From Mobula hypostoma (taxonomy: Eukaryota), in assembly GCF_963921235.1 (NCBI RefSeq), contig NC_086108.1, positions 79,362,001 through 79,426,000 on the forward strand: a DNA stretch of 64,000 bases. Reading direction: 5' to 3'. Below, piece after piece: positions 3,872 to 61,695 of the stretch. Position 1 is the first letter of the stretch. Every line of letters starts with the position of its first letter. The notes below the pieces were generated by a model. It was not told the origin of the DNA. It saw only the letters and a list, made by a program, of their open reading frames with translations, and made no database searches. Both the position numbers and the translations under genes were made by a program.

Positions 3872-3960
3872 ATGAATTCTCTGCACGAAACGTTGACTAT
3901 ACTGTTTTCCCTAGCTGCTGCCTGGCCTGTTGAGTTCCTCCAGCATTTTGTGTATGCTGC
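3872..3960 (+). mobile_element. Penelope-derived terminal repeat fragment (hammerhead family)
   Basis: gaaacgttgact...gctgcctggcctgttgagttcctccagcattttgtgt matches the family arm seen at 45384-45481 and 59959-60048. Confidence 0.65.
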
Positions 3961-5094
3961 TATGAAAACACCTTATGTTTGTTTATGTGAAGAAACTTAA
4001 CAGCAAGCAATAGTGCAAAGCACTCCATGTAAGTATGTGTCACAGTGATAAAATCAAAAGTGTAATATGATTTTCTTTATCATTAATGCAACACATAAAC
4101 ATTATGCTAACCTAAGTAACAAAACAAGAATGCCCAGTTTATACAGCAATACAAGAGACTGCTGATGCAAGGTCTCGATTAGAAATATCAGTTGTCCTTT
4201 TGCTTCCACAGACGTTACTTAACCTGCTCAGTTCCTCCAACAGTTTGTTTTTTGCTCAATTTACATTACATTCTAATGTGGCAAAATGGCCCTTACAGGA
4301 AATTTACAAAATAAAATATTAATGCAGAACCGATAAGGTTATATGTTAGGAGATGATAAAAGAAGTTGGCTTTTAGAAGGGTCTTAAATGAGGAAAGAGA
4401 GGTTGAGAGACAGTCAGATTTTAGGAGTTCCAGAGCTAAAGGCATGGCATTCAATGATGGAGAACTGAAATTCAAATACGCAGGAGGTAATAATTGGAGG
4501 CATGCACATATCTTTAAAGGGTCATATGAGAGGAAATAGGGAAGGGCAATAACAGAGGGATTTAAAGACAAGGATCACAATATGAAAAGCAAAGTTTATT
4601 AATTGGGAGCAGTGTAGAACTGGTGGATAGACAGGGCTTAGACTGAGTAAGGAGGTAGGCATCCAAATGGAGTTAACAGAAAGTGGAATGGGAGAGAGTA
4701 GCTAGGAAATTTGAAATAAACAAGTCTACAGATTATAAAATTGTGGCTGTACATTTTATCATTTTCCTGGGTATACGTGAATGATTATGCTATAACAGTC
4801 CTCTTTAGTCAAGAATTTGCAATAATCATCATGCAGTATGTCTAAATAAATAAATAATCTGCTTGTGAAGAAATTTCTTCTTATCTCTGACCAATCCCTT
4901 ACTTTGCGAGTGTGACCCCAGGTTCTAAACACTCAACCAGAGAAATATCAATTCTACATCCACATTGTCAAGTCCTTTATGGTTTGTTCATTTCAATGAG
5001 ATTATCTCTGTAAAACATAAGCCCAGTCTGCCTAATCTATCCTCCAGTATTGCATAACAAAAACATATCTTACAGTCTTGGTCTTCATTAAGTT

Positions 5095-21246: not shown

Positions 21247-21389
21247 GAACATGAGATGACCTGCAGATGCTGGAAATCCAAAGCAACACACACAAAATGT
21301 TGGAGGAATTCAGCAGGCCAGGCAGCATCTATGGAAAAGAGTAAACAGTTGACGTTTCAGGCCGATGAAAGGTCTCGGCCTGAAATGTC
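21247..21389 (-). mobile_element. Short Penelope-derived hammerhead-family element with 8-bp TSD
   Basis: ATAATTCT at 21239-21246 and 21390-21397. Family arm followed by a mini hairpin tgacgtttcaggccga / tcggcctgaaatgtca. Confidence 0.75.
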
Positions 21390-31260: not shown

Positions 31261-34200
31261 ATCTGAAACCCTGAAGTCTTTATTTAGCAAAAGTGACTGC
31301 TCATGTCATTCTCCTGCCAGTTCAGCTTATAACTAAGTAAGGTTATTTAGGTTTGATGTTGTCTGCACATTTCTTAAACTTTTTGGGAGTGAAGAGAAAC
31401 ATATGCAGTTTAGTGCTTTGTTATAGTATTATTTTTAGGGTGTTGGCACGGAATTCTTGGCAATCTAATTTTGTTGCAAACTCTCCAATGTAGATTTCAA
31501 AATTATAACTCTTGCTCTTAGTAAAAATGTTAAAAGTGCTTCTGTTTGACACACCAAGGTATTTTGGATGAGTTGACCCAAATCACTTTGCTGCCCAATT
31601 ACCTCCAAAGAATGCTTGAAGGTATTCAGTGGCAGTAACCATATTTTGCTTTGTAATGAGCATTCCATTCGTGCACTATTTTGCATAGTTTTGCAAGAAC
31701 TGATGTGAACTTTTTAGGGTTTGATACTTACATTGTATTATAAGACAAAATAGCTGATGACTTTGTACTCTGGTCGTGAGAAGCTGAGGTACACAAACTA
31801 AGTAGGAACAGATTCCGTTCCCTTAGTACTGTTTCAGTTGATTTCCATTTGAACAGAATGATAGTGTCACAATTACCACAATGGTGAGCATGGGAAAAGT
31901 AGATACCCCTGCACTGTGGGGAGCCCAGCAAAGAGAGCAGAAGGCTTGGATGTGTTCAACCTGGGGCCAAATAACCTGATAGTACTCCCTGTTGAGACGT
32001 GTATGTGAACACTGTCATTGGGGTAAGTATGTAGCTGTGGATTGTGTTGTCTGTAGAATTATTTTGCAGGAACTTGGCAGTATCTTCAGGTTAAAAGTAA
32101 AAGAGCAACTTATGGAAAATATAAACTTTATTTTTGGGTGTTGTAACCAAGATTTCGTTGCTGCTAACAACGGTGAATATTGATTAGAATTACTTTAATT
32201 AGTTTCTTTCATGCAGTTGACTAATTTAGAGTTTCATTTTGGCTGTAGGACATGATCAGTGAGAGGAATAGATTTAGAGGCATTAGCATTCCTTGAATTG
32301 GTGAGATTTTAGGATTTTCATTTATGTTACATACACCAAGAGGCCTGGTTTCACTGCCCTCCTGCTTAGAATCTTTACCTGAGGTTCCTCATGCCTATGT
32401 TTGGTTAGTCCAAATGACAAGGAGCAGTCCTCTCCTATGCCAAAGCATCCTGGAGTATAGTGGCATCAAGGCCTACAGTGGTACTTCAGGAAGTTTGCTG
32501 GTGAAACATTGCCTCCAGCTATCCTGAATGCAAAAGTATGTGTATATTTTTAATAGATTTTAAATGTTATTGCAGACATTTGAAAGCTATTAAAACTGAT
32601 TTTTAAAATGGTAAATTTAAATGAAAGTTATGAAAAACACATGTAGGCGTCATTCACTGAGTGGCAAATTTATCATATTGGTCTGGTTTTTGAGTTTTTC
32701 ATTTATGCAAACAAGCATTAGCTAATGCAAAAGAAAAAGACTTGCCTTTCCGTTCATCTCTGAACATATTTTTGCAATCCTCATTGAAATAAATGAAATC
32801 TTGGATCTTGTGCCAAGTTTAACCTCGCAAAGTATACGAAAGGGATCTTTTCTCCCCACCCCAAATTGCTGGGAGTTTCACCAAGATTCCTTTGGAGTTC
32901 AGCAGCTGAGCAAACTGGCAGATTGAATGCTCTGAATCTGTTGGAAAATCTGGGACTTCTGATAGCTTTTTTGCTGATGTGTATGAGTGGCTTTACAGCT
33001 GGACATGGTTCCATTCTTCTTGGTACTTGTGTGCTTTCTCAGTCTCATTTCTCATTCTTTGTTTCTAATAGTTCGTCTTTACCTCCAGTGTATTGTATCT
33101 GCTGAAACGTTTTGCATGTATTTTAAAGTACCAAGGTTGTTCCAAAGAAAAATTGTTGTATCTGAAAGTGCAAAATAAAGCGAAGATAAAACATTGGTGA
33201 GTTTTTGACAAGAAGTATCTCTGGAATGAAATAAATGTTGATGCCTCTGGCCAATGACTTTAACATTTTTTTATATTTATGAAGCACTTCGTTTTGTGAT
33301 TATTTTCCCCCTACTTTTTGCCTCTGATGTGATCTTCTAGATATTTAAGCAAGCATTAACTGATTCAATGTGTTGATTGAACTTCAGATCCTTCTTCTAT
33401 GCCTTTAGCTCAATTTTTCTTCAATACCTTTCCCTTTGTCTCCCATATAGTACAATTTTCCTGAGGAAAAATCATCTCCAGAATGTGAAAGTCTGTTGGC
33501 TTTTTCTTAATTCAAAAAAAGGTAATGTTGGAAGCCCTCAACAGCATCCATGGGGAGAGAAACAATCAACTTTTTGGGTTGAGGACCCTTCATTAAAACT
33601 CTAAAGCTGAAAGTGCTTTCATTTACAGAGGGGGGTAGGGGAAGACTGCAGGGAAAGAAATATCTTCATGCAAAGAGACGATATCATCAGCAGGAAGTGC
33701 CTCAAGATGGTGGCATCATGGTTAAGGCCCCTCACCATCTGGATATGCCCTTTTCTCATTACTACCATCAGGGAAGAGGTAGAGGAGCCTGAAGACCCAC
33801 ACTTAATGTTTTAGGAACAGCCCTTTCCCCTCTGCCATCTGAACAGTCCATGAGCTCATGAATATTACCTCACTATTTCCTCTTTCACACTATCGAATTA
33901 TTTACTTTTATTATTGTGACTTTAGTAATTTCTTTTGCTTGCAGTGTACACAAAACAACACATTTCACGAATTACTGAACATCATTGACAATAAATCTGG
34001 TTCCGAATATCTGTGACCTGAGCTTACTGAAGTCACCTGGAAAACAAATTACTTTTCAAAAAAAAAGTATCACCTCGATACAGCAAAGAAAAATAAATCA
34101 ATTGGAAACAGAGAAATACATTCATATTTGTGGAGAGTAAAAGAAATGAGCGGTTATCAGAAATTGTTAAATTTGCATCTCAAAAGGGTCTCAACAAACG

Positions 34201-39019: not shown

Positions 39020-39206
39020 AGCAGCAAGCACAAAATGTTGAAGGAACTCAGCACGTCAGGCAGCATCAATGGAAATGAATAAACAGTCAAAGCCTCAGCC
39101 AGGAACGTCAACTATTTATTCATTTCCATAGATGCTGCCTGACCTGCTGAGTTCCTCAAGTATTTTGTGTGTGTTGCTTTGGATTTCCAGCTGTCTCGTG
39201 TTTCTT
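39020..39206. mobile_element. Fold-back Penelope-derived element with 11-bp TSD
   Basis: ATTAAAAGCAA at 39009-39019 and 39207-39217. Inverted arms cacaaaatgttgaaggaactcagcacgtcaggcagcatcaatggaaatgaataaa / tttattcatttccatagatgctgcctgacctgctgagttcctcaagtattttgtg. Confidence 0.8.
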
Positions 39207-44559: not shown

Positions 44560-44975
44560 TTCAGGGAAAAATCAAATCATGTTACTGGGATTAGAAGGCA
44601 TGAGAGACTGGATTGGCTGGGGCTTTATCCCTCTGGGGCATAGGGAGGCTGAGGAGTGAATTTGTAGAGACATATAATATCATGAAGCCATGAGTAGAGT
44701 GAATGGTCACGGTCATTTTTCCAAGCTAGATGAGTTTCAAACTGGAGCGCATAGGTTTAAGGTGAGAGGGGAAAGACTTGTAGGGAAGCCAGATGTGGAA
44801 ATACCTGAGAAATGGTAGAGGTGAAACAAATGCAGTATTTGGAAAGAGTTTCAGCAGGTACATGGATAGGAAAGGTTTGGAGAAATATGGGCCATGTGCA
44901 CTGGTACCTCAGGTGGGAAACTTTGTGGGCATGGGTAAGTTGGGTCCTATGGTCTATATCTCCGACTCAAATAAC
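44560..44975 (+). mobile_element. CR1 LINE 3' end, degenerate
   Basis: ggaggctgaggagtgaatttgtagag...gcgcataggtttaaggtgagagggg...caggtacatggataggaaaggtttgg. Confidence 0.7.
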
Positions 44976-45332
44976 AAGAATTAGGCTGATGTTAGAAATT
45001 GGGAATAAGCACATTAAATACTACAGCCACTTAGCAGGATTCGCTGCTTTAGCTGTCCCATAAAACAGAGCAGGCTGTAAGTGGCAACTCTGACAGTTAT
45101 TGACCTGAAAATGTTAACGCAGTTTCTCTTTACGCAGATGTTGCCTGATCTCCTGAGTGTTTCATTTGTATTAAATAAAATGCGTAACTTTATCTTTATT
45201 GTTTTAAATCATTTTTAGCACTTAAAATGATATGGTGCAGTTAATAGAGCCGTGACTTCACAGCACCAGAGACCCAAGCATCAAAGTTGCTGGTGAACGC
45301 AGCAGGCCAGGCAGCATCTGTAGGAAGAGGTG

Positions 45333-45370
45333 CAGTCGACGTTTCAGGCCGAGACCCTTCGTCAGGACTA
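45333..45370 (-). ncRNA. Minimal type I hammerhead ribozyme motif (mirror copy)
   Basis: Exact reverse complement of 45390-45427 in the left arm. Confidence 0.75.
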
Positions 45371-45389
45371 ACTGAAGGAAGAGTTCAGT

Positions 45390-45427
45390 TAGTCCTGACG
45401 AAGGGTCTCGGCCTGAAACGTCGACTG
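45390..45427 (+). ncRNA. Minimal type I hammerhead ribozyme motif
   Basis: Stem I UAGUC(45390-94)/GACUG(45423-27), core CUGACGA (45395-401), stem II AGG/CCU around GUCUCGG, GAAA (45415-18), then CGUC with predicted cleavage after C45422. Helix III is reduced to the self-complementary ACGU. Confidence 0.75.
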
Positions 45428-45898
45428 CACCTCTTCCTACAGATGCTGCCTGGCCTGCTGCGTTCACCAGCAACTTTGATGTGTGTTGCTTGAATTTCCA
45501 GCATCTGCAGAATTCCTGTTGTTTACCAGAGACCCAAGTTTGATTCTGAGCTCTGTGTGGAGTTTGCACATTTTTCCTTGTGGGCTTCCTCTTGTGCTCT
45601 GGTTCCCTCTCACATCCCAAAGATACGTGTGTTGGCAGGTTAATTAGATACTATAAATTGTGAGTGATTATCGCTGTTTGAATCTGCCTCATACCCATGA
45701 GTACCTCAGCTCACCCCAGGAGGTAGGACCTCGAAGCACAAAGTGCTGAGATTGGTTGTATTGCATCCATGTCACTTGCCAATTATAAGCCACCTAGGCT
45801 CAAATTATGCTTCGACTCTGATCTCAAATTTAAAGTTAATTTTTGAATAAATCTTTTGTGTCATCTTGGGGAAGGCGACAGCACATTCTATGGAAATA

Positions 45899-52494: not shown

Positions 52495-54000
52495 TGTACA
52501 CCTCCAGTTCAGAGGAGACGAGTCTTGGAGCAATCATTTGGCTGTTAGGATAGTGGCATGCTCCTCCTGCAGGATGTGGTTGCTCTGGGAGACTTCCAGA
52601 GTCACACCTAAGGTACAAGCAGAAAGGAAAGGGGAGTAGGCGGGTAGTGCAAGATTCGCCTGTAGCCGTTCCCCTCAAAAACAAGTATAGTGTTGTGGGA
52701 GAATGCGCCCCCTTCACCATTTCCCCTCTCACCTTATCTCCTTGCCTGCCCATCACATCCATCTGGTGCTTCCCCCCTCTTTTCTTTCCTGACCTTCTGT
52801 CCTCTCCTATCAGATCCCCCCCTCCCGCCTCCATCCTGTATCTCTTTTACCAATCAACTTCCAGGCTCTTTATTTCATCCCTCCCCCTTCAGGTTTCACT
52901 TTTCACCTGATGTTTCTCTTTCCCCTCTCCCCACCGTTTAAACCTACTCCTCAGCTTTTTCTCCAGTCCTGCTGAAGGGTCTTGGCTGGAAACATCGACT
53001 GTACTCTTTGTTGCTTGGATTTCCAACATCTGCAGATTTTCTCTTGTATAGTGTTACGGGACTAGCTGGGCGGGTTTCAGTTCCGGGGAAGGCAGCAGTA
53101 GCCTGGTTTGCTTCATCTTTAGCCAAAGGTGAGATGTCCCTTGTTAGTCATCTGTATCAATGTACAAGGCATGGTTAGTAAATGTGCAGATGACCGTATA
53201 GTGGACAGCAAAGAAGGTGTCTTCTTACAGGGCACTTTGATCAGCTGAGGAAGTTGGCCAAGGAATGACAAATGGAGTTTAATTTGGATAAGTGTGAGAT
53301 GTTGCATTTTGGAAAATAAAATTCAGGTAGAAGTTTCACAGTGACTGACAGGTCCATGGGGAGTACTGTAGCACAAAGGGACCTTGGAGTACAAGTGCAT
53401 AATTTCCTTTAAACCGAGTCCCAGGTGGACAGGAGGGTGAAGAAGGTCTTCATAAGTGAGGGCACTGTGTATAAAATATGGAGGTCATGGTATCACTGAT
53501 GGGATCTTACCTGGAATATTGCGCTCAGGTTTGTTTTGCCCTACCATTGGAAGATGTTAGTAAACTAGAAAGAGTGCAGAAACAATTTCCAAGGATGATC
53601 GAGGGACTGAGTTGCAGGGAGAAGATGGACAGGCTCGGACATTATGCTTTAGCGTGTAGGAGAGTAAGAGGTTTTCTTATGGTGTATAAAATCATGAGGG
53701 TGATGGACAGGGTGAATGCACTTGTTCCCAGAGTTGGAATATTAAGAACTAGAGGATATAGATTTAAGATAGACTTGATTGGCAACTTCTTACACAAAGG
53801 GTGGTATCAATGTGGAAACAGTTGCTAGAGGAAGTGGTTAAGGCAGGTACAATAATAACTTTTGAAAGATATTTGCACAGGTATATGGATTGGAAAGGTT
53901 TAGAAGATTATGGGTCAGATGCTGTCAAAAAGTACTAGGCATCTTGGTTGGCATGGAGTCAAAGGGCCTTTTTGTGTGCATTTTGACTCTCTGACTCTAA
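52495..54000 (+). mobile_element. Internally deleted CR1 LINE (ORF1 remnant plus RT 3' portion)
   Basis: ORF1-like CSSCRMW and VQDSPVAVPLKNKYSV at 52555-52694. RT remnants at 53130-53900 (YLEYCAQV, KLERVQKQFPRMI). Tail tgactctctgactcta. Confidence 0.75.
52695..53045 (+). mobile_element. Penelope-like 3' UTR fragment with mutated hammerhead and 10-bp TSD
   Basis: GTATAGTGTT at 52685-52694 and 53046-53055. Pyrimidine-rich body, then CAGTC-CTGCTGA-AGGGTCTTGGCTG-GAAA-CATC-GACTG at 52964-53001. Confidence 0.8.
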
Positions 54001-54044: not shown

Positions 54045-54170
54045 ATTGAGCAGATGCTGGAAATCCAGAGCAAAACACACAAAATGTTGAAGGAACTCAT
54101 CAGGTCAGGCAGTATCTATGGAAATGAATAAACATTTGACATTTCGAGCTGAGATCCTTTATCATGACCC
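54045..54170 (-). mobile_element. Penelope-derived terminal repeat (hammerhead family), degenerate
   Basis: gcagatgctggaaatccagagcaaaacacacaaaatgttgaaggaactcatcaggtcaggcag...ttgacatttcgagctgagatcctttatcatgac. Confidence 0.7.
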
Positions 54171-55194: not shown

Positions 55195-55400
55195 TGTGTA
55201 CCCCTCCCCTCCCTGACCTAGCAGTTCAACAAAAGATGGTAGCCACAATTACATCTTTGTCTTCCCCCGTTCTTTTTAGTGGGTGTCTTCCACCTTCCTT
55301 TCCAACCCTGAAGGAGGGTCTTGGCCTGAAACGTCAACTATTCGTTCCCATAGATGCTGTCTGACCTGCTGAGTTCCTCCAGCATTTTGTGTGTATTGCA
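55195..55400 (+). mobile_element. Penelope-derived terminal repeat with degenerate hammerhead
   Basis: cctgaaggagggtcttggcctgaaacgtcaact...atagatgctgtctgacctgctgagttcctccagcattttgtgtgt. Confidence 0.7.
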
Positions 55401-55595
55401 TTAAATTTGCATGATTGTTTTGGTGAATCCTTGCTGTTTCCTTTCCATAAATCTAATATTCTGAAGTGACCATAATTTATGTTATTACCTCTGTATTGAA
55501 TTCAGAGTTTGATCATATATCTGGTAAAATATGTATTTTGTGTGTACTACCAGATGCATCTGTTCCTCCATTCTGTGAAACATGTTAACTTTTGG

Positions 55596-55890
55596 TGCAA
55601 CACACACAAAATGCTGGGGGAACTCAGCAGGTCAAGCATCATCGATGGACAGGAATAAACAGTCAATATTTTGGGTCGAGATCCTTCATCAGGAATAAAG
55701 AGTCGAAGTTTTGGGCTGAGACCTTTCATATGGACTGGAAAAGAAGGGGGAAGAATCAAGAATGTCGGGGGAGGGGAGCAGTAGAAGCTGAAAGGTGATA
55801 GGTGAAACCAGGTGAGGAAACTTGGTCAAACAACAGGAATTCTGCAGATGCTGGAAATTCAAGCAACACACATAAAAGTTGCTGGTGAAC
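55596..55890 (-). mobile_element. Penelope-derived repeat with a tandemly duplicated hammerhead unit and a second short copy
   Basis: 40-nt imperfect tandem repeat 55651-55690 / 55691-55730. 55829-55890 is near-identical to the reverse complement of the tail of 45279-45524. Confidence 0.7.
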
Positions 55891-57007
55891 TTAGTGCTCC
55901 TTCTTAAAAAACAATATACTGTACAGTTCTTGCCATGAAATTGTCTTTGCCTATAGGGTGGTTCAAAGGAATCATTTTGCTGTTCGTTGGTAATATAGCA
56001 GTGAATAAGCAGCATCTTCAATTATTTTCATGTAGGAGGTGGGATTGGGGGGTAGGGAGGGATCGGTGCAGAGTTTGTCTATTGTGCAGTTCATCTGCAC
56101 TGGATGAGTTGTGCAAAAAAATTTCTAATTCAACCTTTCCTTTTTTTGTTTGTTTTTGCTAGTTTTTGCATTTTGATCAAGCCCAGATGCTTGAAAGGCT
56201 GGACCAGTACATGTGATTCAAACCCTTATCACCAGTAGAGAATCAAATGTTTCTTTGTTTCTCCAGCAGTTGCATCTGTTTATATTGCATTCTGAAAGCA
56301 AAGGGCGGCAACACTGTGACCTGAATAAATGTAGTTTATTGGATAAATAGTGCCTTGATGAAAGCTGGGAATGTTGATGGTAAAAGAACGAAGGTTTGGT
56401 AGGAAGGGAGGGCACAAACTCCACATAGTTTATGTCCCAGGCAACGCAAAGCCTTGCAGGCAATGCAAAGAATTGACTCCTTGTTTGTTTAATGGACAAG
56501 TTTTATACACACATCAGATTTCAATCAAATATATTATGGTGATGAAAGCTCACCCATGTTTTGGATGTTGCCAAATCCAAAGGTGTGTCACAGCTTAAGC
56601 TTGGTACTGAAGGTCTAAAAGTTTATTTTTCAAATTCTTACATAAAATGTTGACAAAACAGATGTAGTAGTTTTTGAGCTGAATATTTACACAGTAACAC
56701 CCTGATATTCCAGGATCTGATTGCCAGGAAATCCTGACTGCTCATCTCCGGGCTGGCACATTAGACTCGAATGAGAGTCTGGGGTTTGAAGCGTGGCTAG
56801 TTCTGTGGGTCAGGTATGCAGTGGGCTGAAGTATTTGTGTCCTGATTCCCAAGAATTGGGAACATGGCTGGGTTTGCAGCTGGACTTCAGGCTTTGAATA
56901 TTTGGTTATTTTCTTTACCATTTTTCCCCTCACTGGATTCACTGAAAATGGTATTGAACTAATGTGTAGCATGCTCCTTTTTTAAAAAAAAAGTTATATG
57001 AAACTAG

Positions 57008-57551: not shown

Positions 57552-57661
57552 GTGCATTATGCTGGGTATTATTAGGAGTTGGTACTGGACTATCAGAGAT
57601 CGACTACTGTATGCTGATTGCAAATATTCTAGTGGTCACCAAAGTCTTTCAAGTTTTTTAA

Positions 57662-57752
57662 ATAACACACACAAAGTGCAGGAGGAACTCAACAGGCCAG
57701 GCAGCAGCTATGGAAAAAGAGTACAATCGACATTTTGGGCTGAAACCCTTCA
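57662..57752 (-). mobile_element. Penelope-derived terminal repeat, single arm
   Basis: aacacacacaaagtgcaggaggaactcaacaggccaggcagcagctatggaaaaagagtacaatcgacattttgggctgaaacccttca. Confidence 0.7.
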
Positions 57753-59822: not shown

Positions 59823-60048
59823 AAACAACAGATAATCTGCAGATGTTGGAAATTCAAGCAACACACACAAAATGCTCGAGGAACTCATCAGGCCAGGCAG
59901 CATCTGTGGAAAAGAGTACGGTTGATATTTTGGGCTGAGACCCTTCAACAGGACTATAAAGGGTCTCAACCTAAAACGTCGACTATACTCTTTTCCATAG
60001 ATGCTGCTTGGCCTGATGAGCTCCTCCAGCATTTTGTGTGTGTTGCTT
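59823..60048. mobile_element. Fold-back Penelope-derived element, imperfect 90-bp arms
   Basis: Arms 59856-59945 and 59959-60048 are imperfect reverse complements. The unpaired family tail lies on the left. Confidence 0.8.
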
Positions 60049-60547: not shown

Positions 60548-61695
60548 GAGACACAAGAGGCTTCAGATGCTCAAGTATGGAGCAACATCAGATCTACTGG
60601 AGGAACTTAGCAGGCCCAGCAACATCAGTGATAGAAAAGACATTGTCAACATTTTGGGTCAAAATCCTGCATCATGACTGAGAGGAAAGGCGAGATGGCC
60701 AGCAAGGCCAGGAGAAGGGAGTTGCAAGAAAGGACTCTGAGTTGGTTAGTGGACTGAGGAGGGGTGTAAGGTGGTGGACAGCTGGGTACAGTAACTTACT
60801 CTGCCTCCTTCAACACCATTCAGGGAGGTAAATAGGCCTTTCAGGTGAGTCAAAGGTTTGCATGCCTTTCCTGTAACCTTGCCTACTGCATATGGAGCTC
60901 TCAAGGTGACATCCTTTGCATCAGTGAGACTAAGTGCAGACTCAGCAATGGCTTTACAGAACACCTGCTCAGTCCACAATAGCCATCCTGAGCTTCCAGT
61001 TACAGACCATTTCAACTCCCTCCCTGTTCTCACACTGACATGTCCATCCTTGACCGGGATGGAAACTGGAGGAGTAACACCCTGTATTCCACCTGGGTAG
61101 TCTGCAACACAATGGCATGAATATTGAATTTTCCAGTTTTAGTCACCCTCCCCACCTTTTTTACTTTATTCTCCCCCTCCCTTTCTCCTTCTGATCCTCC
61201 AGTCCTCCCTTCTTAGTCACCTTTCCCACCGTCCCTACAGCATCTCCTTCACCCATCCTCATCCCTTTCCCCAAAGCACTTCGCACAAAGATTTCCCATC
61301 TGGTTCCAACCATTGTTTGTCTCTCCTTTCTCATCTAATGGTTCCTCATCAGAACCCAGCATTGGTATTCCTGCTGGTCTCCCATCCCTACACTCTGCTC
61401 CTCTGTGTTGCTGTACGTTTATTTTTCAATTTTTCTCCCCCCCTCCCCTCCTCTCCTGGCACAGGCTTCCAGTTACACACCAGCTCACCACACCTCTCTG
61501 ACACAACCTTCCTGCCAACTTGCACCCCCCCCCTTGGTCCACCAATTGTCTCGGAATCCATTGTTGACTTCCTCCTCTCTGTGCTGACCTTCTTGCCTCT
61601 CCATTCTCAGTTATGATACAGGGGTTCATTCTGGAACGTCCATAATGTTTTTCCTCTCACTGACGCTGCTCAAACTGCTGAGTTCTTCCAGATCT
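60548..61695 (+). mobile_element. Penelope-like element: inverted 5' terminal repeat, GIY-YIG endonuclease remnant, 3' terminal repeat
   Basis: 60812-61140 translates with breaks to TIQGGK*AFQVSQRFACLSCNLAYCIWSSQGDILCISETKCRLSNGFTEHL...PELPVTDHFNS...FHLGSLQHNGMNIEF, typical of the Penelope GIY-YIG domain. Flanked by oppositely oriented family repeats (60548-60715 minus, 61600-61695 plus). Confidence 0.8.

What the first reader, a model, noticed from the sequence alone, without database searches (positions are those of the whole stretch)
45279..45524. Perfect 98-bp palindromic retroelement with an intact hammerhead ribozyme core on each strand
Seen: a 246-bp non-coding insert with mismatch-free 98-bp arms, a 7-nt loop, a 43-bp tail and an exact 14-bp TSD (ACCAGAGACCCAAG). 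Each strand contains stem I - CUGACGA - stem II - GAAA-CGUC - stem I'. Established: Penelope-like elements carry minimal type I hammerheads in their terminal repeats, with a vestigial palindromic helix III that is proposed to work as a dimer. Inference: this is a very recent insertion of a tiny non-autonomous, ribozyme-bearing hairpin element, mobilised in trans by a Penelope enzyme. I cannot tell whether this form is already catalogued in elasmobranchs.
Basis: partly seen in the sequence, partly recalled or inferred. Interest (0 to 1): 0.82.

Follow-up and report, generated by a model that had tools for sequence, protein, structure and literature searches.

The report
Two-armed Penelope retroelement stump insertion
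This 246-base perfect palindrome is an ordinary dead-end insertion of the tail end of a very abundant Penelope-like jumping gene, laid down as two mirror-image truncated copies; its hammerhead-like RNA motif comes from the parent element and would likely be locked inside the hairpin rather than act as a ribozyme.

Summary
There are 98-nt arms that are 100% complementary, 7 nt between them, a 43-nt tail on one side and an exact 14-bp target-site duplication.

This is not a distinct hairpin element. It is a head-to-head pair of 5'-truncated copies of the 3' end of an endonuclease-bearing Penelope-like element (PLE). Longer copies run upstream into a reverse-transcriptase and GIY-YIG reading frame.

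The hammerhead-like core occurs 39,897 times exactly in the 3.48-Gb genome. The exact 98-nt arm occurs 1,123 times. About a third of sampled insertions are two-armed (11 of 28 and 9 of 28), and their turn points differ. Our junction occurs only 11 times, each with different flanks and subfamily variants. The mirror half is therefore built anew at each insertion.

All 42 pairs with both 3' ends visible carry exactly one tail. The "loop" is templated parent sequence.

This architecture is already published (Arkhipova 2013, Craig 2021, Frangieh 2024), and so are PLE minimal hammerheads (Cervera and de la Pena 2014). This scan has reported the same thing before, including in this genome. No Rfam hammerhead model matches, helix II is weak, and the RNA would fold into a -220 kcal/mol hairpin. 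Low interest.

The parts
45265..45278 (.). Left copy of the 14-bp target-site duplication ACCAGAGACCCAAG
   Evidence: direct repeat D1, 100% identical, abutting both ends of the insert.
45279..45383 (-). Inverted, tail-less, 5'-truncated copy of the PLE 3' end (105 nt). It runs from family position +87 (...TTTGATG) back to -18 and includes the 7 nt previously called the loop (45377-45383).
   Evidence: The loop GGAAGAG is the reverse complement of the parent's CTCTTCC. The BLAST match to a long copy covers ref 87..-18.
45333..45370 (-). Hammerhead-like motif of the inverted copy (mirror image of 45390-45427)
   Evidence: exact 28-mer on the - strand at 45338-45365.
45384..45524 (+). Direct 5'-truncated copy of the PLE 3' end (141 nt, family positions -10 to +130), including the tail
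   Evidence: (nhmmer E = 5e-52).
45390..45427 (+). Minimal type I hammerhead-like motif. It reads: stem I UAGUC/GACUG, core CUGACGA, bulged A, helix II GGGU-CUCG-GCCU, GAAA, CGUC. The predicted cut is after C45422.
   Evidence: Sequence, fold of the isolated segment, comparison with the descriptor of Cervera and de la Pena 2014. Cleavage is untested.
45469..45490 (+). Predicted stem-loop AGCAAC-N10-GUUGCU, inside which the tail-less 3' ends of family copies fall (family positions +87 to about +104). It is inferred to be the proximal start site of reverse transcription.
   Evidence: fold of 45384-45524. 3' end positions come. The analogy to the stem-loop start site of PAc comes from Frangieh 2024. 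Inferred.
45482..45524 (+). 43-nt 'tail', present on this arm only. It is the sequence between the inferred proximal and distal start sites of reverse transcription.
   Evidence: The tail signature TTCCAGCATCTGCAG is at 45496-45510.
45525..45538 (.). Right copy of the 14-bp target-site duplication

Best explanation
The 246-bp insert is a head-to-head pair of 5'-truncated copies of the 3' end of an endonuclease-bearing Penelope-like retrotransposon, flanked by a 14-bp target-site duplication; it was likely made in a single integration event in which both nicked target strands primed reverse transcription from two different internal start sites. Shown: the arms are ordinary family sequence; the parent family encodes RT followed by GIY-YIG; the 'loop' is templated; two-armed insertions with variable turn points and exactly one tail are routine for this family. 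Inferred: the element's GIY-YIG nuclease made nicks staggered by 14 bp. One 3'-OH started cDNA at the distal site, giving the arm with the 43-nt tail. The other started at the proximal site inside a stem-loop, giving the tail-less arm. Both cDNAs ran to nearly the same point just 5' of the hammerhead (-10 and -18), which is probably the 5' end of a short template RNA. They were then joined by a template jump with no added bases. The product has no promoter and no ORF and is dead on arrival. Its hammerhead-like motif is a passenger from the parent's 3' region. In a transcript through the palindrome it would be sequestered in a 98-bp duplex, and one RNA holds only one sense copy, so it cannot form the tandem dimer that such minimal hammerheads are proposed to need.
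For: Anatomy.

Family size: the 31-nt core has 19,921 + 19,976 exact matches (reversed control 0). A 3' 25-mer has 69,329. The exact 98-nt arm has 1,123.

Parent is a PLE. Copies extend more than 1 kb upstream. An RT frame shows YLLPKFHK, FTMDVQSLYT, QTKGVAMG and RYIDDC (Pfam RVT_1 E = 9e-5). It is followed by CX4CX2C and GVIYC..LLYIGETRRRLGDRFAEH (Pfam GIY-YIG E = 1.9e-4, 22.1 bits against a cut-off of 22.6). This frame ends about 300 nt before the motif.

Two-armed form is routine: 11 of 28 insertions and 9 of 28. Among the first 100 core hits, 10 close (-,+) pairs were seen against 1 (+,-) pair. Among 100 hits of the 3' anchor, 14 against 0.

Hairpin is not inherited: our junction is found 11 times exactly, plus 4 with one mismatch. 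These have different flanks, TSDs, subfamily variants and tail sides.

One tail per pair: 24 of 24, 15 of 15 and 3 of 3 pairs spanning two loci, giving 42 of 42. Single copies carry a tail in 8 of 19.

5' ends cluster: 38 of 100 arms end at -32..+8 and 49 of 100 at -32..+47. Ours end at -18 and -10.

Literature (passages or sections read). Craig 2021, PMC8557442: an inverted 5'-truncated copy adjacent, a 30-40 bp tail often at one end only, the hammerhead in the pLTR. Arkhipova 2013, PMC3846280: an inverted pLTR, a tail on one of the inverted pLTRs, palindromes at the junction. Frangieh 2024, PMC11167929: the enzyme cuts and extends both strands, there are two internal RT start sites, the tail is the sequence between them, and the hammerhead is protein-assisted and not needed for insertion in vitro.

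Reality of the junctions: contigs of run X1 cover 44751-45304 and 45503-45623 with 0 differences.
Against: Both Pfam matches (RVT_1, GIY-YIG) lie below the curated cut-offs, so the PLE call rests on motif order and architecture. No intact full-length copy was sought or shown, and the PLE clade was not determined.

The two-strand priming model comes from an Anolis element in vitro, where start-site use did not differ between strands. Nothing here shows that two primers were used. A separate short transcript copied in trans cannot be excluded.

No read or contig spans the palindrome centre at this locus, and run X1 may be the sample the assembly was made from.

Breakpoints are good to only about +/-10 nt at palindromic junctions.

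The samples all come from the first 3.8 Mb of one contig. Eleven pairs were chosen because they share our junction.
Confidence: 0.88

Rival explanations
1. This is a distinct, tiny, non-autonomous hairpin element with a ribozyme on each strand. It is transcribed as such and copied in trans by a Penelope enzyme, so the palindrome is part of the element.
For: The insert holds the 3' region where reverse transcription starts. Arkhipova 2013 reports that pLTR sequences alone suffice for integration in trans. The same junction recurs at 11 places. A 2026 preprint (abstract and two passages seen) argues that animal retrozymes are non-autonomous PLE derivatives.
Against: The 11 places differ in subfamily variants that are mirrored in both arms, in which side carries the tail, and in flanks and TSDs. 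Turn points vary continuously among insertions. The arms are identical to the 3' end of long copies carrying RT and EN. A palindromic RNA would be a -220 kcal/mol duplex.
Confidence: 0.04
2. Same element, different mechanism. A single cDNA snapped back on itself (self-priming), as Arkhipova et al. 2013 proposed for palindromic inverted junctions. In this view the second arm is a copy of the first and not a second target-primed cDNA.
For: The difference between the arms' ends is tiny (7 nt here; 0-60 nt in most pairs). No untemplated bases are present. Arkhipova 2013 infers self-priming from such palindromes.
Against: In a simple snap-back of a tail-primed cDNA, the arm with the tail must also carry the turn, so it must be the longer arm. 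Here the tail is on the shorter arm. Among places with our junction, the tail is on the longer arm in 6 and on the shorter arm in 4 or 5. A copy-back should also run through the tail and give two tails, which was seen in 0 of 42 pairs. Pairs with arm ends 322-957 nt apart exist.
Confidence: 0.2
3. Assembly or sequencing artefact, meaning a chimeric fold-back read, and not a real genomic palindrome.
For: No contig of the runs laid spans the centre at this locus. Craig 2021 notes that PLE tandem and inverted structures trouble assemblies.
Against: An exact 14-bp TSD flanks the insert. Both insert-flank junctions lie in contigs of run X1 with 0 differences. The same architecture recurs at dozens of sampled loci with their own TSDs and is the published PLE pattern.
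Confidence: 0.02
4. A fold-back DNA transposon or MITE with 98-bp terminal inverted repeats.
For: Long inverted arms plus a TSD.
Against: The ends are asymmetric, with a tail on one side only. The outer ends are the retroelement's 3' ends and not conserved TIR termini. The inner breakpoints vary between copies. The arm sequence is the 3' untranslated region of an RT/EN element.
Confidence: 0.01

Closest known systems
Insertion architecture of endonuclease-bearing Penelope-like elements: an inverted 5'-truncated copy or inverted pLTR, an optional 30-40 bp tail at one end, and a TSD (Arkhipova et al. 2013, PMC3846280; Craig et al. 2021, PMC8557442)
   Same: It shares 5' truncation, an adjoining inverted 5'-truncated copy, a palindromic junction, a tail at one end only (43 nt here), a TSD, and a hammerhead motif in the terminal region.
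   Different: Nothing differs in kind. Here both copies are very short stumps (105 and 141 nt), so the whole insertion is one perfect hairpin. The family is very abundant, with tens of thousands of copies.
Minimal type I hammerheads of metazoan PLEs (Cervera and de la Pena 2014, PMC4209133)
   Same: It shares the CUGANGA core, GAAA, and a cleavage-site C. It has a short helix I (5 bp), an unpaired base after A9, and no helix III loop, with a palindromic ACGU that could pair only between two copies. That paper also noted dual motifs close together on opposite strands.
   Different: Helix II has 4 pairs, against 6-8 in the paper's consensus. The 10.1-11.1 pair is G-U and not the conserved G-C; older subfamilies in this genome still have G-C. 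Activity is untested.
PAc (a Poseidon-clade PLE of Anolis carolinensis) reconstituted in vitro (Frangieh et al. 2024, PMC11167929)
   Same: The geometry matches: the hammerhead, then about 60-100 nt downstream two alternative 3' ends 26-43 nt apart, with the proximal one in a predicted stem-loop. The tail is the stretch between them. Extension of both strands in vitro fits a two-armed product.
   Different: In PAc the hammerhead overlaps the start of the ORF. Here it lies about 300 nt after the end of the ORF. In vitro, start-site use did not differ between strands, whereas here every pair has one of each (42 of 42).
5' inversions of LINE-1 made by twin priming (recalled from general knowledge; no paper read here)
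   Same: Two cDNAs are primed from the two target strands and joined head to head within one TSD.
   Different: Twin priming inverts a different, more 5' part of one RNA, so it gives no palindrome. Here both arms cover the same segment.
Non-LTR retrozymes: tandem hammerhead repeats giving circular RNAs (Cervera and de la Pena 2020, search listing only; Li et al. 2026 preprint, abstract and two passages)
   Same: They are hammerhead-bearing, non-coding and related to PLE terminal sequence.
   Different: Retrozymes are direct tandem repeats with a sense ribozyme in each unit. This insert is an inverted pair with one sense motif per strand.

Membership tests
Endonuclease-bearing Penelope-like element (insertion product) | The parent family encodes a PLE-type reverse transcriptase followed by a C-terminal GIY-YIG endonuclease | tested here: met
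   RT motifs and GVIYC..LLYIGET..RRLGDRFAEH lie in the same orientation upstream of the motif. The Pfam matches are weak (RVT_1 22.7 bits against a cut-off of 29.6; GIY-YIG 22.1 against 22.6).
Endonuclease-bearing Penelope-like element (insertion product) | 5' truncation with an adjoining inverted 5'-truncated copy | tested here: met
   The arms end at family positions -18 and -10. The same form is seen in 11 of 28 and 9 of 28 sampled insertions.
Endonuclease-bearing Penelope-like element (insertion product) | A 30-40 bp tail at only one end of the insertion | tested here: met
   A 43-nt tail lies on the right arm only. 42 of 42 family pairs have exactly one tail.
Endonuclease-bearing Penelope-like element (insertion product) | Target-site duplication | tested here: met
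   14 bp, exact. Other copies show TSDs of about 10-15 bp by eye.
Endonuclease-bearing Penelope-like element (insertion product) | Partial tandem or pseudo-LTR arrangement of longer copies | tested here: inconclusive
   In L032 the tail and the roughly 30 nt that follow it recur about 2.1 kb upstream at 84% identity. Only one locus was examined.
Hammerhead ribozyme, minimal type I form of PLEs | Conserved core C3-U4-G5-A6-N7-G8-A9, G12-A13-A14, A15.1-U16.1, H17 | tested here: met
   CUGACGA ... GAAA-CGU-C at 45395-45422.
Hammerhead ribozyme, minimal type I form of PLEs | Short helix I, unpaired base between A9 and 10.1, palindromic 15.2-16.2 | tested here: met
   UAGUC/GACUG is 5 bp with one G-U. 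A45402 is unpaired. ACGU is palindromic.
Hammerhead ribozyme, minimal type I form of PLEs | Stable helix II (6-8 bp in the published consensus) closed by G10.1-C11.1 | tested here: not met
   GGGU/GCCU is 4 pairs, two of them G-U, and the 10.1-11.1 pair is G-U. Older subfamilies have GACCC or GGCCC, which gives G-C.
Hammerhead ribozyme, minimal type I form of PLEs | Match to a curated covariance model | tested here: not met
   No Rfam hammerhead hit at gathering score or at E<=10. This is expected for motifs that lack helix III.
Hammerhead ribozyme, minimal type I form of PLEs | Compensatory changes in the stems across copies | tested here: inconclusive
   The young family is nearly invariant. 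The changes between subfamilies lie on the 3' strand of helix II opposite G and U, where any transition keeps a wobble pair, so they say nothing.
Hammerhead ribozyme, minimal type I form of PLEs | Self-cleavage | not testable with these tools
   The hammerhead fold of the isolated segment scores -7.7 kcal/mol, against an MFE of -13.1. In the full insert the motif lies inside the 98-bp duplex.
Non-LTR retrozyme | Direct tandem repeats, each with a sense hammerhead | tested here: not met
   The arrangement is inverted, with one sense motif per strand.
Fold-back transposon / MITE | Conserved terminal inverted repeats shared by all copies | tested here: not met
   The outer ends are asymmetric (one tail), and the inner breakpoints vary between copies.

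The most novel reading that the evidence does not exclude
The genome keeps a natural record of how Penelope-like elements integrate. Every two-armed insertion carries one arm started at the distal site and one at the proximal site (42 of 42), and the two arms usually stop within a few bases of each other. This fits a dimeric enzyme that primes from both nicked target strands on one and the same short RNA. One reverse transcriptase would start at each of the two adjacent start sites, and the trailing cDNA would then jump onto the displaced leading cDNA at the RNA's 5' end, just upstream of the hammerhead. That would explain the long-puzzling tail and inverted repeats of these elements as two faces of one coupled reaction.
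Probability: 0.3. Interest if true: 0.45.

Novelty: already known. Interest (0 to 1): 0.15.

Why it matters
For this locus it matters little. It is one of tens of thousands of dead end-fragments of a known kind of retroelement, and its ribozyme-like motif is a passenger.

The family as a whole is a large, clean data set for the still unsolved integration mechanism of Penelope-like elements. Three features can be tested in the in vitro system published in 2024:
- the strict rule of one tail per pair;
- the linked stopping points of the two arms;
- the pile-up of 5' ends just upstream of the hammerhead.

On the practical side, perfect palindromes of this size are hard for assemblers and aligners, can look like microRNA precursors, and may be fragile or give double-stranded RNA if transcribed.

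Tried and rejected
Rfam: nothing at gathering score in the whole window. At E<=10 on 45200-45600 there were only sub-threshold microRNA and sRNA models, which match the long hairpin, and no hammerhead.

DNA search of the own genome with the 141-nt copy returned nothing, because very common words are skipped. Exact patterns were used in its place.

A gapped pattern to count all tight palindromes was not accepted by the tool because of a pattern length rule. I sampled loci as a substitute.

Empty site:
The empty site in the relative therefore stays a suggestion.
- A search for paralogous uninterrupted target sites among the held sequences found none.

Expression: no RNA holder is listed for this stretch. 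Two runs guessed to be RNA cover parts of the flanks and the repeat. This says nothing either way.

Covariation of the hammerhead stems was uninformative.

Folding of the isolated motif and of two copies together did not favour the hammerhead fold. This is not evidence against activity, because published PLE hammerheads are poor in vitro or need protein.

The protein atlas gave eukaryotic RT clusters, mostly from rotifers, with no family name. This is a lead only.

The PLE clade (Poseidon, Neptune or another) was not determined.

The organism was not identified.

Repbase and Dfam are not on hand, so I could not check whether this family is catalogued. A paper search for Penelope elements in cartilaginous fishes was seen as a listing only and not read further.

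Start of arms at the predicted cleavage site: 2 of 100 arms start at +29, against about 0.2-0.3 expected per neighbouring position. This is a weak hint and not a result.
Full report
WHAT IS THERE.
- Arms 45279-45376 and 45384-45481 are 98 nt long and 100% complementary, with 7 nt between them.
- A further 43 nt (45482-45524) follow on the right.
- ACCAGAGACCCAAG flanks the insert on both sides (45265-78 and 45525-38).
- The string CTGACGAAGGGTCTCGGCCTGAAACGTC lies once on each strand. No match was found in any of 100 shuffles.
- As RNA the insert folds at -220.1 kcal/mol, z = -31.6.

WHAT FAMILY IT BELONGS TO. The 31-nt core has 19,921 + 19,976 exact matches in the window's own 3.48-Gb genome, against 0 for the reversed control. 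A 25-mer nearer the 3' end has 69,329 exact matches. The exact 98-nt arm has 1,123.

Thirty loci lined up on the core show that many copies run on upstream through a shared sequence (...CACTCTTCCTTCAGTTAGTC-CTGACGA), for more than 1 kb.

In a 10-kb stretch (L032), the sequence upstream of the motif, in the same orientation, holds the following:
- A 421-residue frame with the RT motifs YLLPKFHK, FTMDVQSLYT, QTKGVAMG and RYIDDC (Pfam RVT_1 E = 9e-5, below the curated cut-off).
- After a frameshift, CKRNKCYTC ... GVIYCIWCSRCGLLYIGETRRRLG.

In another copy (L055) this C-terminal part is open for 291 residues and matches Pfam GIY-YIG at E = 1.9e-4 (22.1 bits, cut-off 22.6). It ends about 300 nt before the motif.

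RT followed by GIY-YIG is the defining gene order of endonuclease-bearing Penelope-like elements (Craig 2021 and Frangieh 2024, passages read). The arms of the finding are therefore the last 105 and 141 nt of such an element.

THE HAIRPIN IS MADE AT INSERTION, NOT INHERITED.
1. The 7 nt between the arms, GGAAGAG, are the reverse complement of the parent's CTCTTCC, which lies directly 5' of TTCAGTTAGTC. The left, inverted copy is simply 7 nt longer than the right one, and no untemplated base is present.
2. Two-armed insertions are common and turn at different places.
   - Among the first 30 core hits (28 distinct insertions), 11 have a head-to-head partner. Their arm ends include -12|+1, -20|-22, -8|+30, -31|-24, +57|-3, -1|-323, -137|-1094 and others.
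   - Among the first 30 hits of the 3' anchor (28 insertions, partly the same loci), 9 have a partner.
   - In the raw lists, close pairs are almost always (-,+), that is head to head: 10 against 1 among 100 core hits, and 14 against 0 among 100 anchor hits.
3. The very junction of this locus occurs only 11 times exactly, plus 4 times with one mismatch, in the whole genome. These places have different flanks and their own TSDs. They carry different subfamily variants (CTACAG, CTATAG, CTAGAG) mirrored in both arms, and the tail is on either side. Two of them (L039 and L040) look like a segmental duplicate.

A hairpin master that was being copied would give the opposite picture.

THE TAIL. Family copies end at the 3' side in two ways. 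Some end near ...TTTGATG(TGTGTTGC), at family positions +87 to about +104. Others end 26-43 nt further on, at ...CCTGTTGTTT.
- Single copies carry the long form in 8 of 19.
- In two-armed insertions exactly one arm carries it. The counts are 24 of 24 pairs with both 3' ends visible (three further pairs lack one 3' end), 15 of 15 and 3 of 3 pairs spanning two loci. That gives 42 of 42, with none having two tails or none.
- Eleven of the pairs were chosen for sharing our junction. The rest are unselected hits from the first 3.8 Mb of contig 1.
- If the arms chose independently at the single-copy rate, about half the pairs would have one tail.
- In our copy the tail-less arm is the longer one at the turn. 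Among the same-junction places the tail is on the longer arm in 6 and on the shorter arm in 4 or 5.

WHERE ARMS STOP. I aligned the sequence upstream of all 100 listed anchor hits to a long copy.
- 38 arms end between -32 and +8 relative to the C of CUGACGA, and 49 between -32 and +47. Five more fall there if arms with imperfect alignments are counted.
- About 35 arms run beyond -300.
- Our arms (-18 and -10) lie in this pile-up.
- Breakpoints at palindromic junctions are good to about +/-10 nt.
- Two arms start exactly at +29, the base after the predicted cleavage site. The neighbouring positions average about 0.2-0.3 each, so this is a weak hint.

HOW IT MOST LIKELY AROSE. Published work describes this architecture.
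- Arkhipova et al. 2013 (passages) describe an inverted pLTR completing the insert, a TSD, a 31-bp tail on one of the inverted pLTRs, and palindromes at the inverted junction. They take the palindromes as a sign of self-priming.
- Craig et al. [quoted passage not shown]
- Frangieh et al. 2024 (main text read) show that a purified Anolis PLE protein cuts and extends both target strands. It starts reverse transcription at two adjacent internal sites of the RNA, the tail is the sequence between them, and the hammerhead is protein-assisted and dispensable for insertion in vitro.

Putting these together with the counts above, I infer the following sequence:
1. The nuclease made staggered nicks 14 bp apart.
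2. One 3'-OH primed at the distal site, giving the right arm with the tail.
3. The other primed at the proximal site, inside the predicted stem-loop AGCAAC...GUUGCU (45469-45490), giving the left arm.
4. Both cDNAs ran to almost the same point, probably the 5' end of a short RNA.
5. A template jump joined them.

A simple snap-back of one cDNA fits our copy less well, because the tail would then sit on the longer arm and copy-back should duplicate the tail. These steps are inference. Nothing here shows two primers.

THE HAMMERHEAD QUESTION. The letters fit the minimal PLE hammerhead of Cervera and de la Pena 2014:
- the core CUGACGA, GAAA, and a cleavage-site C;
- helix I of 5 pairs;
- an unpaired A after A9;
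- no helix III loop, with a palindromic ACGU that could pair only with a second copy.

It departs in helix II. GGGU/GCCU has 4 pairs, two of them G-U, and the 10.1-11.1 pair is G-U where G-C is otherwise conserved. Older, more diverged copies in the window and loci read GACCC or GGCCC there, which gives G-C. The abundant young subfamily differs by a C-to-T change at a CpG.

These changes lie opposite G and U, where any transition keeps a wobble pair, so they are no evidence for or against selection on structure. No Rfam hammerhead model matches.

The isolated segment does not prefer the hammerhead fold (-7.7 against an MFE of -13.1 kcal/mol). Two copies together prefer an extended duplex. In this insert the motif sits inside a 98-bp duplex, and each transcript would hold one sense and one antisense copy, so the proposed tandem dimer cannot form in cis.

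I therefore regard the motif here as an inherited passenger. Whether the parent's motif cleaves in vivo is open.

AGE AND REALITY.
- The arms are identical to each other and to 1,123 other places, all CpGs are intact, and the TSD is exact. This fits a young insertion but bounds the age only loosely.
- Contigs of run X1 (same species, possibly the assembly's own sample) cover 44751-45304 and 45503-45623 without a difference.
- A 618-nt contig of run X5, from a different organism label, aligns with its first 523 nt to 44750-45278 and stops exactly at the end of the left TSD. Its last 95 nt do not lie on the insert. That is what an empty site would give.

EARLIER NOTES OF THIS SCAN. I read these after my own reading was recorded. 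They describe the same thing on other DNA and in this genome:
- palindromic mini Penelope insertions whose mirror half is built anew each time (e1-7858806);
- a two-armed insertion in this genome whose short arm starts at the predicted cleavage site (e1-9822609);
- hammerhead-bearing Penelope tail fragments in this genome (e1-7790757);
- breakpoints piling up just upstream of the core (e1-7858061);
- a fold-back mini-insertion with a 15-bp TSD (e1-7812055).

My searches test and agree with the first and fourth. For the second I find only a weak hint.

VERDICT. It is an ordinary, probably recent, dead-on-arrival two-armed insertion of a Penelope-like element's 3' end. Interest is low for the locus. 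The strict one-tail rule and the linked arm ends across the family are of modest interest for the mechanism of these elements.

Noticed in passing
window 59825-60048: A second, older two-armed stump of a related subfamily. The arms are 59856-59945 and 59959-60048: 90 nt, 88% complementary, 13 nt between them. The tail is on the left arm only and the turn lies at about -4|+8. The core has decayed (CTGTTGA...).
   Followed up: partly
window 55304-55437 and 55596-55893: More decayed 3' ends of related Penelope-like subfamilies. One has the core CTGAAGG. There is also a cluster on the - strand with two hammerhead-like remnants in a row and a tail at 55827-55893 (nhmmer hits).
   Followed up: no
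window 21248-21365, 39092-39191, 54045-54169, 57659-57751, 60560-60681, 3878-3962, 33540-33644, 52850-53048: Further nhmmer matches to the same 3' region. The window holds well over a dozen fragments of this element group.
   Followed up: no
family-wide (loci on G000 contig 1): The most abundant young subfamily has G-U where older subfamilies have the conserved G10.1-C11.1 pair of the hammerhead, through a CpG to TpG change. The most successful lineage therefore carries the weaker helix II.
   Followed up: partly
L054 (G000:C1:443161-446185): This insertion's inverted arm is little more than the tail. A second short CAACAGGA, the start of the inverted tail, is repeated at the junction before CTGACGA. 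It looks like a repeated or abortive start at the distal site.
   Followed up: no
L039 and L040 (G000:C52, about 300 kb apart): Two complex insertions share the same junctions and the same flanks, so they are probably a segmental duplication and not two events.
   Followed up: no
L049 and L103 (G000:C1:170434 and 2960805): Two single copies start at about +34 with the same flanking sequence. Either the host sequence is itself repeated or the region was duplicated.
   Followed up: no
L089 (G000:C1:2252511 and 2252572): Two 3' anchors lie in direct orientation only 61 nt apart. This is an internal short tandem duplication within one copy.
   Followed up: no
window 45295-45465: The hairpin scores 52-54 bits against the plant microRNA model MIR1144 (gathering score 90) and 31.5 bits against mir-1237. 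Such palindromic stumps could be mistaken for microRNA precursors by structure-based screens.
   Followed up: no
window 45100-45165: By eye, the left flank (...CCTGAAAATGTTAAC...CAGATGTTGCCTGATCTCCTGAG...) resembles the stretch downstream of the hammerhead in related subfamilies. The insertion may sit next to an older, decayed stump. nhmmer did not report it at E<=1e-3.
   Followed up: no
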